Below, in pieces: positions 3,296 to 13,790 of a stretch of DNA of 64,000 nucleotides. The stretch lies in NCBI RefSeq assembly GCF_009914755.1, contig NC_060948.1; one strand, given 5' to 3'. This stretch comes from the human T2T-CHM13v2.0 reference genome, Homo sapiens. The first letter of the stretch is position 1. Each line of letters opens with the position of its first letter. Under the pieces are notes generated by a model. That model was given only the letters and a program-made list of their open reading frames with translations, made no database searches and was not told the DNA's origin. Position numbers and translations under genes: made by a program.

Positions 3296-3973
3296 TATAT
3301 TTTTTATATGTGAATAAAGAACAATCAGTCCCAGTCGTCAGTGTGGCAAATTGCTAGGCAACAATGGAGGGAGGAACTTGGAAGTGGGGGCATGCCAGGG
3401 GCAATGAAGAAGACATAGTTGCCTCAGGCTGTGTGCAGGCAGCCTGAGCGGCCCTCCTCCTTGAGGCCTCAGTTTTCAGAGTAAGTGTCTGCTAGGTGAT
3501 ATCCAATAGCAGTAATCTCCTAGGTGGTCCCCACAACAAATCAGCCAGTGTCCCTGGAAGACATAGCTTAAGTCCCTAACCATCAGATCATCTGGAATTT
3601 CCAATCAGAAATGAGAGACCAACTGGAAATTCTCAGTCAAGGTCCAAACTAAAAGAATCACTGGCACACCCACCAAGGCTAAGACAATTTTTAAAAGAAT
3701 CATTTGGGTGCAACCGTGTATTTCTGTAAAACAAAATTACCTATTGTAAATGTTACTGTTTTTACTCATTATGTGTACGGTCCTATGATAGACAGCCCAA
3801 GGGGATTGTCACCTCAGAGTCCAAAACACCAGATGCTGATATCTTCAATTTCTATTTAGATTGAATTTAAACAAGCCAGCCAAACACTCTGCGGTGAAAC
3901 TCTCATGAAGACAAGTGATTGAAAAAGGGAAAAAACAAAACAAAACAAACAAACAAACAAAACAGTGTGTTCA

Positions 3974-4108
3974 GGGGAACTGGTTCATGCCTGTCATCCC
4001 TGCACTTTGGGATCCTGAGGGCACATGGATCCCTTGATCCCAGGCAATCCAGAACAGCCTTAGCAATACGATGAAACCTCCTCTGTAGAAAAATACAAAA
4101 ATAGCTGG
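3974..4108 (+). mobile_element. Old Alu monomer/left arm within the IGS paralog
   Basis: catgcctgtcatccctgcactttggga...aaaaatacaaaaatagctgg. Confidence 0.75.
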
Positions 4109-4244
4109 TTTCATAACCTTGACTCAAAATTAATAAATAAATAGATTAAAATTTAAAATAAAAACTTAAATGCTGTATTATCTTATTTTTGCTTCCTACC
4201 CTGAGAAGAACATAATACAGCTGGTCTCCGTCCGACTGTCTGTT

Positions 4245-4496
4245 TGTGACAGAGTCTCACTCTGTCACCCAGGCTGCAGTGCAGTGACACCATTATGGCT
4301 GACTGCAGCACCAACCTCCCCAGGCTTAAGTGAGTCTTCCACTTTGGCCTCCTGAGTAGCTGGGACCACACAGGAATGCACTTCGGGTTTTGGCTGTGTT
4401 TTCCAAGACTTGACTCGATCTCCTGCGCTAAAGCATGCCTACCTCCTCAGCCTCCCAAAGTGCTAAGGTTGCAGGTGTTACCCACTGCATCCGGCC
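4245..4496 (-). mobile_element. AluJ-like element within the IGS paralog
   Basis: gacagagtctcactctgtcacccaggctg...cctcccaaagtgct. Confidence 0.8.
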
Positions 4497-5064
4497 TGAC
4501 TTAATACATCTGGTCTCATTACAACTTGACCACATGCCCACAAAGAACTCAAATCAAGGGAGAATCAACAAGAGACTTTCAGCATTCTTTCCCTAAAGCG
4601 GGGAGGTGGATGGTGGCCGAATGTCCTGCACTTCTGTGGTTTTAGGTGGCCACGTTTAGAGGATAGATTTCAAATGTTTCTGTTAGAGGCACAAGCCACA
4701 GTCATTTGGAGCAATGTTTCTGACAGTGTCTTAAGGGCCAGGAAGGGCCAGGATCTGCCAAGGCCTGTGTTCCAGGGTGGGGTCGATGGAATCCAGGGTA
4801 GAAGGAGCCATCGGTCCTCACTGAGTTCTAGCCCTAGGCTCCACTGTGCAGACCAAGTCAGAAGGAACAATCCCTCGTCCTACATGCCACATGCATCTAC
4901 TGAACTTGAAAGTGGATCCATTTTCCAAACATGAGGTGACTCTTTGTTGGAAATGGATGACAAGGGGCCGGCCTTTCCGGAGTCGGTATGATAAAGAACT
5001 CATTCTGTGGCATAGAATGAGGTGTGGCTTGAATCTTGAATCTCCATTTAAAACCAATGAAGGT

Positions 5065-5345
5065 GGCCATGGACTGTGGCTCATGCCTGTCATCCCAGCA
5101 CTTTGGGAGGCTAAGGCAGGCAGATCACGAGGTCAGGATTGTGAGACCCGCCTAGCCAACATGGTGAAACCCCATCTCTACTAAAATTACAAAAATTAGT
5201 TGGGTGTGGTGGTGCATGCCTGTAATCCTAGCTACTCAGGAGGCTGAGGCAGGAGAATCACTTGAACCTGAAAGGCGGAGCCACTGTAACTCCAGCCTGG
5301 GGGACAGAGTGAGACTCCATCTCAGAAACAAACAAACAAACAAAG
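5065..5345 (+). mobile_element. AluS within the IGS paralog
   Basis: Alu body with small right-arm deletion and (AAAC)n tail. Confidence 0.9.
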
Positions 5346-10385: not shown

Positions 10386-10589
10386 ACTGAAATAATCCCC
10401 TGCCTTCCTTCCCTTTTCCCCTTTAGAACCTACAGTTGTTTGCAGTTTCTGATCCCTTAAGTGGCAGAATATATTCCATGGGGCTAACTGTGGCTTTCTT
10501 GCATTGCCACTGAATGTCCCCTATAAGGCCGGTACCCCCTGCCTCAGGTCAAGGAGGTGGTGTTTCGTTTTGTTTCTCTCTCTCTCTTT

Positions 10590-10850
10590 CTCAAATTTTA
10601 TTTCTTGTTGAAGCATACATGTGCAAGATTGTCATATAGGTAACTTCTGACTGGGGGGTTCAGAGTGCAGATTATTTCATCACCTGGGTACTCAGCGCAA
10701 TACCGGACAGTTTTTGTGTTTTAATCTGAAACTATCTCTCCTACCATTCCTCCTCCCTCAAGTAAGGTCCCGTGTCTCTGGTCGCCCTCTTTCTGCCCAC
10801 ATGTTCTCATTATGTAGTTCCCACTTACAGATGAGAACACACCGTGTTTA
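10590..10850 (-). mobile_element. Old L1PA 3' UTR fragment within the IGS paralog
   Basis: acatgtgcaagattgtcatataggtaa...gattatttcatcacc...cccacttacagatgagaaca. Confidence 0.7.
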
Positions 10851-11329
10851 GTTTATTGTTGGTTTCATCTACGGTGATGGTGATAAAAGAAGCATGAGAG
10901 TAAATCGACCCTTAGGACACTCCCCTATGTCCTCATCACACACATCCCTCCCCGCACACACTCTCACCTCTACACCCCCTACTCAAGCCCAAGAAAGGAA
11001 GAAAGACATAAAGTAAAGTAAGAGGTCAGCCTCCAAGGTGATGGAGGCCGGGGATCTCAAAGGGTGAGCAAGCGGTGGGGGACAGAGGATGTTGTGGCCA
11101 AGCTAGAAAAGGTGGGAGACTGACTTTCTAGCTCCATCCCACACCCCAGGCTTTGGGTGGGGTGGCTCCTGCAAAAGCTTCTGAATGGAGAGAAGCCTGA
11201 AGCCATAGAAGTCACCAGCTAGGAATTCAGGAAGGGAATAAAGCTTTGTGCATGTGAATGGGGCTTTGTAATGCGGTGCTGTGGCTTCCAAGGTGATGCT
11301 CCTCGCCTCACACAGAGCAAGACTCCATC

Positions 11330-11487
11330 AAAAAAAGAAGAAAGAGAAGAAAGAAAGAAAGAAAGAAAGAAAGAGAGGAAGAAATGAAGGAAGGAAGGAA
11401 GGAAGGAAGGAAGGAAGGAAGGAAGGAAGGAAGGAAGGAAGGAAAGAAAGAAAGAGAGAGAAAGAAAAGAAAAGAAAGAAAAAAAAT
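11330..11487 (+). repeat. (GAAA)n/(GGAA)n purine microsatellite; 14 consecutive GGAA at 11389-11444
   Basis: Direct count from the sequence. Confidence 0.95.
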
Positions 11488-11524
11488 CAGAACACATGTC
11501 GTGGTTGTGAGTGATTACCAGGAG

Positions 11525-13790
11525 GCCAGGCAAAGTGGCTCATGCCCATCATTCCAGCACTCTGAGACTCTGGGACAGGAGGATTGCAATGAAGTGATGA
11601 GACTCTGTCTGTAGAACAAATTTAAAAATAATCTGGGCACAGTGGCGCGTGCCTGTGGTCCCAGTTACTCTACTCTGGAGTCTGAGGAGGAAGGATCACT
11701 TGAAATAAGGTGTGTCCAGGCTGCAGTGCATGAGCTTTGATGGCACCACTGCACTCCAGCCAGGGTGACAGAATGAGACACTGTCTCTGAATCAATCAAT
11801 AAATCACATGACTGAAAGGACCTCTCTATTTCTTACTTTCAATGGATATGTCTTTAGGACAGATGGGCATGGTGGCTCACCCCAGTAATCCCAGCACTTA
11901 GGGAGGCCAAGGCAGGAGGATTAAAATAAAGAAAGAAACAAATAAAAGAAAAAGGTGGGGGAAGGTGTATCTCCTTGACTGGTGACCAAAATTACACAAA
12001 CCCAACAAGGAAGGAACGTGTGTAGGATTCGGTAAGTGCACCCTGTTTTCTGAAACTACTGTACAGTATTGTCATCTTAAAGATGAGTGGGGCTGGTGGT
12101 GGGGGTGGCTCATGCCTTTAATCCCAGAACTTTGGGAGGCTGAAGTGGGTGGATCATGAGGCTAGGAGTTCAAGACCAGCCTGTCTTGAACAGGTGGTGA
12201 AACCTTGAAAGATGGTGAAACCATGTCTTTATTTTACTTAAAATACAAAATTAGGAGGGTGTGGTGGTGGGAGCCTGTAATCCCTGCTATTGGGGAGGCT
12301 GAGGCAGGAGAATCACTTGAACCTGGGAGGTGGAGGTTGCAGTGTGCCAAGATCAGGACACTGCCCTCTTGCTCCGGGTGACAGAGCAAGAATCCATCTC
12401 AAAAAAAAAAAAAAATGAATTTAAAAAAAAGAAAACAGGATGAGTGGACAAGCCTGGCCAACATGGCTAAACCCCATTCATCTCTACTAAAAATGCAAAT
12501 ATCAGCCGGAAATGGTGGCATGCATCTGTGATCCCAGACACTCAGAGAAGCTGAGGCACAAGAATCACTTGAGCCTGGGAGGTGGAGGTAGCAGCGAGCC
12601 TAATTCGAACCACAGCACTCTGGCCTGGATGACAGAGTGATACCCTGTCTCAAAAAAAAAAAAAAAAAAAAAAAAAGATGAGGCCAGGCATGGTGGCTCA
12701 CTCCTCTAATCCCAGCACTTTTGGAGGCCGAGGCATGTGGATCTTATAGTCAGGTGTTTGAGACTAGCCTGACCAATATGGTGAAACCTCGTCTTTACCA
12801 AAAATACAAAATTAGCTAGGCTTGGTGGCGCACTCCTGTAGTCCCACATGCTCAGGTGGTTGAAGCAGGAAAATCACTTGAACTTGTGAGGCAGAGGAGC
12901 TTGCACCAATGCACTCCAGCCTGGGTGACACAGGGAGACTCAATCTCAAAAAAAAAAAAAAAAAAAGATGGAAAATATAGATCTCGGAGTTGACAAATGG
13001 GCAGATCCAATATGAGATGCACATGGGATGGTGGCCAAGCTTGAAGTGCAGTTTTCTTTTTTTTTATTTTTTATTTCTATTTCTATTTTATTTTATTTTA
13101 TTTTTAGCCCTGTCACCAGGCTGGAGTGCTGTGGTATGATGTCAGCTCACTGCAATCTTCGTATCCCTGGTTCAAGTGATTTTCCTACCTCAGCCCCCCG
13201 AGTAGCTGAATTTACAGGCACGCGCCACCACACCCAGCTAATTTTGTATTTTTAGTAGAGACAGAATTTCACTATGTTGTTCTGGATGATCCTGATGTCC
13301 TGACGTCGTGATCTGCCCGCATTTGTTTCTTTCTTTCTTTCTCTCTTTCTCTCTTCTTTCTTTCTTTCTTTCTCTTTCCTTCTTTCCTTCTTTCTTTTCT
13401 CTCTTTCTCACAGGATTGCCCAGGTTAGAGTGGGTCATGACTGACTGCTGCCTCAATTTTTCAGGCTTCAAGTGATCTTCTCCTTATCTCAGACTCCTGA
13501 GTAGCTGGGAGTACTGGCATGCACCACCACACCTAGCTAATCTTTTTATCATGCTTATTATTATTGTTATTTTGAGACAGGATCTTGCTCTATCACCTAG
13601 GCTGGAGTGCTGTGGCACATTCTCGGCTTACTGCAACCTCTGCCTCTCTGGTTGAAGCGACTCACTGACCCCAGCCTCCTGAATTTTTGCCATGTTTGCC
13701 AAGGCTTGTCTCGAACTCTTGGCCTTAAGTCGATCCACCTGCCTTGGCCTCCTAATGTGCTGGGATTACAGGCATGAGCCACTGCACCTA
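11525..13790. mobile_element. Dense Alu cluster: + 11525-11790, 11865-11920, 12095-12415, 12450-12677, 12682-12966; - 13060-13320, 13410-13550, 13570-13790; (TTTC)n 13325-13410
   Basis: Successive Alu bodies and tails; boundaries approximate. Confidence 0.85.

What the first reader, a model, noticed from the sequence alone, without database searches (positions are those of the whole stretch)
3296..11900. Fossil rDNA intergenic spacer outside a NOR, apparently in a shorter ancestral layout
The minus strand follows the human IGS in order, from my recall of U13369/KY962518, from shortly after the terminator region to a few kb before the promoter. It does so in ~8.6 kb rather than ~25 kb. The CT-rich tract (6655-7055) joins directly to sequence that lies much further downstream in modern IGS, so the Long Repeat block seems absent. 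Because concerted evolution erases old rDNA states, such an orphon could preserve an extinct spacer. It may also attract mis-mapped IGS lncRNA or ChIP reads.
Basis: partly seen in the sequence, partly recalled or inferred. Interest (0 to 1): 0.75.

Follow-up and report, generated by a model that had tools for sequence, protein, structure and literature searches.

The report
Pre-ape ribosomal spacer fossil on Y
This 9 kb stretch of the human Y chromosome is a decayed copy of the spacer between ribosomal RNA genes, and it lacks four insertions that today's spacer carries; it likely left the gene arrays more than 29 million years ago and is probably a functionless record of how the spacer looked before apes arose.

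Summary
Window 11,985→3,311 (minus strand) is colinear with 22.2 kb of a modern rDNA intergenic spacer (IGS) in 8.7 kb, with 18% mismatch. One Long Repeat copy is present; the second copy and the big TC blocks, which are human or human/chimp additions, are absent. The key evidence is four empty insertion sites: the CDC27 retrocopy (one copy of its 16-bp target site), Alu22, Alu23 and Alu11. Published tables put Alu11 in macaque too, so the copy likely split before apes and Old World monkeys (28.8 Ma). About 1.1 kb of it has no match in the modern human unit examined. It is not unique: nine such 'empty' loci were found on Y, chr12 and chr8, forming two old lineages apart from the known ape-era rDNA relics. 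It has no promoter or rRNA gene, and read mis-mapping is unlikely. Its flank resembles the NOR distal junction. Monkey rDNA sequences could not be compared directly.

The parts
2998..11985 (-). Decayed rDNA intergenic-spacer copy (unit ~17.5-39.7 kb) in a pre-CDC27, pre-Alu11 state
   Evidence: Colinear masked alignment, end points, 18.3% mismatch over 4,080 unique columns
11520..11790 (-). Uninterrupted old Alu (human IGS Alu10); empty site near 11,630 where modern IGS has a 300-bp Alu (Alu11)
   Evidence: same state in both chr12 copies examined; Alu11 has a macaque orthologue in S7 Table and S4 Fig
10008..11309 (-). Single copy of the non-TC part of the Long Repeat (modern IGS has two)
   Evidence: Matches both unit 18,599-19,908 and 23,424-24,365; IGS self-repeat at 87.7%
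9612..10005 (-). 394 bp with no match in the modern IGS unit held; carries a dispersed repeat that was not named
   Evidence: 86% to chr12q and about 70% to 23 scattered loci; no IGS hit
9335..9609 (-). Block matching conserved region c28 (overlaps the IGS28 RNA region)
   Evidence: 77% to unit 28,810-29,095; 81% over c28; c28-c30 = IGS28RNA in PMC6281188
8978..9249 (-). Near-full Alu (AluSp-like by recalled motifs); modern IGS keeps only its 3' end and the next ~25 bp, likely human Alu14
   Evidence: Local alignments to unit 19,909-20,090 and 24,365-24,540; shared with chr12q
8300..8975 (-). Spacer sequence missing at this place in the modern human unit; 8,539-8,300 extends an internal IGS paralogy, and 8,909-8,606 also sits alone at chr8:25.407 Mb
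   Evidence: 7 of 7 candidates listed, none in an rDNA array; alignments; chr8 patch 85.5% to window and 89.4% to chr12q
6646..7066 (-). TC tract = third TC tract of modern IGS, both flanks conserved (421 versus 1,338 bp)
4993..5008 (-). Empty site of the CDC27 retrocopy: one copy of the 16-bp target site that flanks the 3.8-kb insert twice in modern IGS
   Evidence: insert encodes CDC27, E=9e-142 to PDB 5g04_F; empty in 9 of 9 loci examined
4140..4165 (-). Empty site of human IGS Alu22 and Alu23 (704 bp in modern IGS)
   Evidence: absent in 7 of 7 empty-class rows, Alu22 present in 8 of 8 filled rows
2998..3295 (-). Alu directly after unit 39,730, found at the same place in both old lineages but not in the modern unit; likely the last spacer-derived piece
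2310..2990 (-). L1-like fragment (label recalled) that truncates the spacer; junction shared with both chr12 lineage-A copies
1..2304 (.). Diverged ~171-bp satellite (monomeric alpha satellite; label recalled) with Alu insertions
   Evidence: Tandem array of period 173 at 1,282-2,304; also next to the chr12p copy
13684..38042 (.). Flank with patches 79-86% like a region on all five acrocentric short arms, inferred to be the distal-junction palindrome
   Evidence: on chr13 the paired inverted hits centre about 222 kb distal of the lowest promoter hit

Best explanation
This is a decayed copy of about half of the rDNA intergenic spacer with four insertion sites still empty; it likely escaped the rDNA arrays before apes and Old World monkeys split and is probably a neutral fossil carried to the Y inside a segmental duplication. 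Steps: (1) SHOWN: spacer homology, order and empty sites. (2) INFERRED from published presence/absence: the split from functional rDNA predates fixation of Alu11, which macaque shares, so it is older than about 28.8 Ma; best guess 30-45 Ma. (3) INFERRED: a DNA-level rearrangement in NOR-flanking or pericentromeric heterochromatin, not retrotransposition, joined it to distal-junction-like sequence on one side and to L1 and alpha satellite on the other. (4) SHOWN: the same block lies on chr12p, chr12q and Y; the direction of copying is not shown. (5) SHOWN: the two Y copies are 99.94% identical and inverted; INFERRED: they are arms of palindrome P5 kept alike by gene conversion. (6) SHOWN: CpG decay; INFERRED: neutral drift once outside concerted evolution.
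For: Colinearity far above shuffles. CDC27 site: modern IGS has target site + poly-T + CDC27 + target site; nine loci have one target site and no insert; the retrocopy is in apes and not monkeys (PMC6281188 section 18). Alu22/23 empty; S7 Table lists them for four apes and not macaque. Alu11 empty in the window and both chr12 copies; S7 gives a macaque orthologue at 84.3%, and S4 Fig aligns macaque at a site inside it. At 4 of 4 shared Alus with a macaque value, window-human mismatch is 16-22% against 7-14% for macaque-human. Tree of 15 rows: empty and filled groups split 100/100; non-CpG distance to rDNA is 14-16% for the window's lineage and 4.5-6.8% for filled relics. IGS CG to window TG/CA 93 times, the reverse 12 times. 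No rRNA or pRNA hit in the 64 kb; Sal-box-like matches 11 against 25.6 expected. Whole-window similarity to chr12 at 84-89%.
Against: No monkey sequence was aligned: the FASTA and alignment supplements cannot be read here, so macaque orthology rests on the authors' tables. My mapping of their Alu numbers is inferred from order, E-box offsets and c35-36 = Alu20. Their text says macaque has Alu22 while S7 leaves it blank; either reading fits an old split. Ancestral arrays could have stayed polymorphic for Alu11, which would allow a somewhat later escape. The trees are unrooted and use one modern unit whose base make-up is flagged as atypical. Y and pericentromeric rates may be raised, which inflates distances. 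The upper age limit is weak: the window is closer to human than marmoset is in 14 of 15 colinear conserved regions, but the methods differ and 3 of the 15 do not beat shuffles. Transcription was not tested.
Confidence: 0.82

Rival explanations
1. It is an ape-era orphon (under about 25 Ma) that lost blocks by private deletion and looks old because Y and pericentromeric DNA mutate fast.
For: Deletions do occur in this family: chr12p has lost about 3 kb and lineage B has lost unit ~29.6-33.3 kb. The window has the longest branch in its lineage.
Against: Four insertions are missing cleanly, and the CDC27 site keeps exactly one target-site copy in 9 of 9 loci. Autosomal copies show the same states and similar distances. 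Ape-era relics on Y (10.5 Mb) and chr20 are only 4.5-6.8% from rDNA at non-CpG sites.
Confidence: 0.05
2. It is older still, at or before the split from New World monkeys (43 Ma or more).
For: The chr12p and chr12q copies already differ by 11.3% (8.8% non-CpG) and the Y copy by about 15%. By recalled neutral rates that approaches the human-marmoset level.
Against: It aligns to human IGS better than marmoset IGS does in 14 of 15 colinear conserved regions (weak test), and it shares AluS-type insertions with the human spacer (Alu13, 14, 19).
Confidence: 0.1
3. The direction is reversed: this pericentromeric family donated sequence to the rDNA spacer.
For: The family is old and multi-copy, and exchange between NOR flanks and pericentromeres is described (PMC5381670).
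Against: CpG polarity of 93:12 fits decay away from a CpG-rich spacer. Marmoset IGS shares regions c38 and c43 at 74%, so the sequence was spacer earlier. The copies are truncated in different ways.
Confidence: 0.02
4. The copy is kept for a function, such as spacer-like RNA or nucleolar tethering of Yq.
For: It spans regions c28-c34, an active chromatin zone of the modern spacer, and sits next to distal-junction-like sequence; DJ DNA can direct nucleolar association (PMC10097779).
Against: Conserved regions are about as diverged (65-81%) as the rest (82% identity). CpGs have decayed. No promoter or terminator was found, and RefSeq lists no gene here.
Confidence: 0.04

Closest known systems
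Degraded, centromere-proximal rDNA units on HSA20 and HSA2 (Robicheau et al. 2017, PMC5381670; passages read)
   Same: DNA-level rDNA relics including IGS, off the NOR chromosomes and near centromeric satellite.
   Different: Those loci are the 'filled' class here: Alu22 present, 4.5-6.8% non-CpG from rDNA. This copy has no 45S part, is 14-16% away and predates CDC27 and Alu11. That paper has no occurrence of HSA12, HSAY, HSA8, cdc27, macaque or monkey.
rRNA pseudogene remnants near the human ChrY centromere (10.64898/2025.12.22.696095; passages read, Fig. S20 not seen)
   Same: rDNA-derived sequence on a Y chromosome that has no array.
   Different: The centromere-near relic (Y 10.5 Mb here) is CDC27-filled and young. 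This one lies about 9 Mb away in a Yq palindrome and is related to chr12 pericentromeric blocks.
Primate IGS reconstructions (Agrawal and Ganley 2018, PMC6281188; Gonzalez et al. 1993, seen only as a citation)
   Same: The window matches their monkey-like states: no CDC27, no Alu22/23, one Long Repeat.
   Different: It also lacks Alu11, which they list in macaque, so it represents a state earlier than any catarrhine in their set. Direct sequence comparison was not possible.
Non-canonical rDNA segments in the human genome (Kupriyanova et al. 2015, Gene 572:237; seen only as a reference entry; not held)
   Same: By its title, a catalogue of rDNA-like pieces outside the canonical arrays.
   Different: Unknown. 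It may already list these loci; I could not read it.

Membership tests
rDNA IGS orphon (DNA-level rDNA relic outside NORs) | Colinear homology to non-repeat IGS sequence | tested here: met
rDNA IGS orphon (DNA-level rDNA relic outside NORs) | Lies outside an rDNA array and is not homogenised with it | tested here: met
   chrY 19.16 Mb; 18.3% mismatch; no rRNA hit in the window
rDNA IGS orphon (DNA-level rDNA relic outside NORs) | Moved as DNA, not as a retrocopy | tested here: met
   Part of a >55-kb block shared with chr12
Near-full-length degraded rDNA unit (HSA20/HSA2 type) | Contains 45S sequence as well as IGS | tested here: not met
   Rfam finds only mir-1324 in 64 kb; the spacer ends at unit ~39.7 kb
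Ape-era IGS (CDC27-bearing) | CDC27 retrocopy, Alu22 and Alu23 present | tested here: not met
   All three sites empty
Crown-catarrhine IGS | Alu11 inserted in Alu10 | tested here: not met
   Empty in the window and both chr12 copies; presence in macaque taken from S7 Table and S4 Fig
Stem-catarrhine IGS fossil | Branches between New World monkey IGS and the ape plus Old World monkey IGS in a rooted tree | not testable with these tools
   Monkey sequences unreadable; indirect support only
Modern distal junction-rDNA boundary | The same DJ sequence adjoins IGS in today's NORs | tested here: not met
   On chr22 the 7.8 kb beyond the match has no window or IGS similarity apart from simple repeats and Alus; the array is about 200 kb away (inferred)
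Functional rDNA element | Pol I promoter/pRNA or Sal-box terminators | tested here: not met

The most novel reading that the evidence does not exclude
The Y and chr12 blocks are the remains of an extinct nucleolar organiser edge from a stem catarrhine: distal-junction-type DNA, then spacer, then old alpha satellite. The human genome thus holds at least three dated strata of rDNA spacer, from which the spacer's last 30-45 million years, and a former rDNA-bearing ancestor of chromosome 12, can be read directly.
Probability: 0.25. Interest if true: 0.72.

Novelty: new variant of a known kind. Interest (0 to 1): 0.48.

Why it matters
Concerted evolution erases old spacer states, so living primates give only the tips of the IGS tree. 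These nine loci are frozen internal samples. They fix the order of insertions (Alu14 before Alu11; CDC27 and Alu22 after both old lineages left), keep about 1.1 kb that the modern human unit lacks, and give an in-genome outgroup for polarising IGS changes. That bears on the open question of how mammals keep a large spacer despite rapid turnover (PMC11373518, passages). The link to distal-junction-like DNA and to both sides of the chr12 centromere offers a test of where NORs sat in early catarrhines. The locus itself is probably inert and of little practical concern for read mapping.

Tried and rejected
1. 2. 'Long Repeat absent': rejected, one copy is present. 3. Mis-mapping sink: 0 exact matches at 75 or 100 bp, 2 at 50 bp and 53 at 35 bp against the ~35 kb of unit held; only very short reads without rDNA in the reference would be at risk. 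4. Spacer homology beyond 12 kb or before 3 kb: none after masking, over window 1-30,000. 5. A modern DJ-rDNA junction: rejected. 6. Order of the two old lineages: the short block suggested A split first, but the longer block gave 19 versus 18 private non-CpG sites, so it is unresolved. 7. Searching the CDC27 insert against the genome returned only array copies (40 of 244 scored), so its identity was taken from the PDB match. 8. The conserved-region comparison with marmoset is weak: 15 of 30 regions hit non-colinear places and were dropped, and shuffled queries reach 56-81%. 9. The alpha satellite listed in macaque IGS (S2 Fig text) raised the idea that the window's satellite is spacer-derived; an L1-like piece intervenes and lineage B shows no such flank within about 1.2 kb, so it is not supported. 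10. Passages of PMC12940165, PMC8395900, PMC7464196, PMC13041921 and PMC11505599 held nothing on these loci.
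Full report
WHAT WAS CHECKED. A search of window 3,000-12,600 against its own genome gave 241 matches from 37 of 44,559 candidates scored: a near-identical inverted twin at Y 18.55 Mb, 79-84% copies on chr12, chr8 and Y 19.24/18.48 Mb, and 76% hits that recur every 44-47 kb on chr13, chr15 and chr22. I fetched unit positions ~13.8-44.5 kb of one chr22 repeat. Rfam found pRNA, mir-663 and 18S at its end, which sets the coordinates. After masking Alus and simple repeats the window aligns to it in order, from unit 17.5 to 39.7 kb; 20 of 20 shuffles scored 34 bits or less, against 859 for the best real block. 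Seven unique blocks give 18.3% mismatch over 4,080 columns, 15.0% over 3,601 non-CpG columns.

WHERE THE 13.5 KB WENT. Modern span 22,207 bp, window 8,675 bp. The main gap is between window 10,008 and 9,609 (8,902 versus 399 bp). It holds the second Long Repeat and the two large TC blocks. PMC6281188 calls the TC blocks unique to human (section 18), lists Alu16 and Alu17 only in human and chimp (S7 Table), and shows the three E-box sites at 24,018-24,304 only in human and chimp (S4 Fig text). So this gap is shared with gorilla through macaque and is not a sign of great age. The rest is CDC27 (3,817 bp), Alu22+23 (704 bp) and Alu11 (300 bp), less about 0.8 kb that the window has in excess.

THE EMPTY SITES. 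In modern IGS a 16-bp target site flanks a poly-T run and a 3.8-kb insert whose reverse strand encodes CDC27 (E=9e-142). The window has one target site and no insert. A search with the spanning 561 bp listed 40 of 465 candidates: 9 align across the site and 31 start only after it. All 9 were examined and show the single site. The retrocopy is reported in apes and not monkeys. Alu22 and Alu23 are missing in 7 of 7 empty-class rows, while Alu22 follows in 8 of 8 filled rows. An old Alu at 11,520-11,790 is whole in the window and in both chr12 copies examined, whereas modern IGS has a second Alu inside it. By order, E-box offsets and the c35-36 anchor this insert is human Alu11. S7 Table gives it a macaque orthologue (84.3%), and S4 Fig aligns macaque at a site inside it. 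That mapping is my inference. The paper's text and S7 disagree on Alu22 in macaque; both readings fit an early split.

AGE. The human-macaque split is taken as 28.8 Ma and human-marmoset as 43 Ma (10.64898/2025.12.22.696095, passage). Lacking Alu11 puts the split from functional rDNA before the first date, unless the ancestral arrays stayed polymorphic. At 4 of 4 shared Alus with a macaque value the window is further from human (16-22%) than macaque is (7-14%). In 14 of 15 colinear conserved regions it is closer to human than marmoset is, a weak test. It shares AluS-type insertions with the human spacer (subfamily labels from the S2 Fig text, and recalled motifs). Best estimate 30-45 Ma; the upper figure is soft.

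THE FAMILY. A tree of 15 rows (886 columns, unrooted) splits empty from filled loci at 100/100. Left out were the two palindrome twins, the listed but unfetched chr20 30.93, chr21 8.79 and chr13 11.73 Mb loci, and all other array units. The empty class has two lineages: A (window, chr12 38.00, chr12 34.15; 100/100) and B (chr12 34.09, chr12 38.09, chr8 46.41, Y 19.24; 96/96). On a longer block A, B and modern rDNA form a near three-way split. The filled class (chr2, chr20, chr14, chr15, Y 10.5) is 4.5-6.8% from rDNA at non-CpG sites and includes the relics of Robicheau et al. (PMC5381670).

LOST SPACER. Window 8,300-8,975 has no array hit (7 of 7 candidates listed). Two observations suggest it is ancestral spacer. 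Its 3' part continues an internal IGS paralogy upstream of where the modern copy begins. And modern IGS keeps the 3' end of the Alu before it plus the next ~25 bp. A 303-bp piece also sits alone at chr8:25.407 Mb. Whether living monkeys still carry it is untested.

CONTEXT AND MECHANISM. Almost the whole window is shared with chr12p11 and chr12q12 at 84-89%. On the spacer's 3' side come an Alu, an L1-like piece and ~171-bp satellite (labels recalled). On its 5' side, after 1.7 kb of mostly Alus, patches from 13,684 to 38,042 match all five acrocentric short arms at 79-86%, partly as inverted pairs 28 kb apart. On chr13 the pair centres about 222 kb distal of the lowest promoter hit, which fits the distal-junction palindrome as described; the identification is inferred. 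The modern DJ does not continue into spacer there, so the block is a mosaic and not today's boundary. The Y twin is 99.94% identical over 8,504 bp; the name P5 rests on recalled arm sizes. There is no promoter, rRNA gene or excess of terminator motifs, and CpG loss runs 93:12 away from the spacer state. The likeliest mechanism is escape by DNA rearrangement near a NOR or centromere, spread by pericentromeric duplication, then neutral decay.

NOVELTY. rDNA relics near centromeres are known. Ten literature searches showed no listing that describes a pre-CDC27 spacer stratum on chr12, chr8 or Yq, and the passages read did not either. Seen: PMC6281188 (passages, sections 18 and 25, seven supplements; FASTA and alignment unreadable); passages only of PMC5381670, PMC7909238, PMC10097779, PMC10705393, PMC11373518, PMC12940165, PMC8395900, PMC7464196, PMC13041921, PMC11505599 and 10.64898/2025.12.22.696095 (its supplements not seen); abstract and outline of 10.64898/2026.03.22.713381. 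Kupriyanova 2015 and Gonzalez 1993 were seen only as citations and may bear on priority.

VERDICT. It is a new, older variant of a known kind, probably without function, and useful as an evolutionary record. Interest 0.48.

Noticed in passing
window 13,684-38,042: Patches 79-86% like the inferred distal-junction palindrome on chr13, 14, 15, 21 and 22. By position they may correspond to the region of the DJ long non-coding RNAs (promoters at 187 and 238 kb).
   Followed up: partly
window ~47,300-53,800: 80-85% matches to chr13, 14, 15, 20 and 21 sites; five of them lie about 230-250 kb from CDC27-filled spacer relics, which hints at larger duplicated NOR-flank blocks.
   Followed up: no
L042:623-925 (chr8:25,407,022-25,407,319): Isolated 303-bp copy of the lost spacer block with abrupt ends, keeping more CpG (14 versus 10); possibly a templated insertion captured from the old spacer.
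   Followed up: partly
L007 and L008 (chrY 19.236 and 18.48 Mb): A second, lineage-B spacer fossil lies about 70 kb from the window's copy, in opposite orientation; chr12p and chr12q also carry an A and a B copy 60-90 kb apart, so the pair may have travelled together.
   Followed up: partly
L005, L009, L010, L007 near the Alu19 site: All four lineage-B copies share one deletion that joins unit ~29.57 kb to Alu19 (~33.3 kb), and carry two Alus in tandem after unit 39,730.
   Followed up: partly
window 31,339-31,428 (+): Rfam mir-1324 match at 78.1 bits (gathering 70), not in the gene table given.
   Followed up: no
window ~39,500-44,800: A dispersed repeat of about 5 kb, 90-94% to loci on chr2, 7 and 11, absent from the chr12 alignments; a later insertion on Y. 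Family not named.
   Followed up: no
window 59,692-60,258: A 570-bp degenerate (TGA/TGG)n tract.
   Followed up: no
PMC6281188 text versus S7 Table: The text says human Alu22 is present in macaque; S7 Table leaves it blank and numbers the flanking macaque Alus 19 and 20.
   Followed up: no
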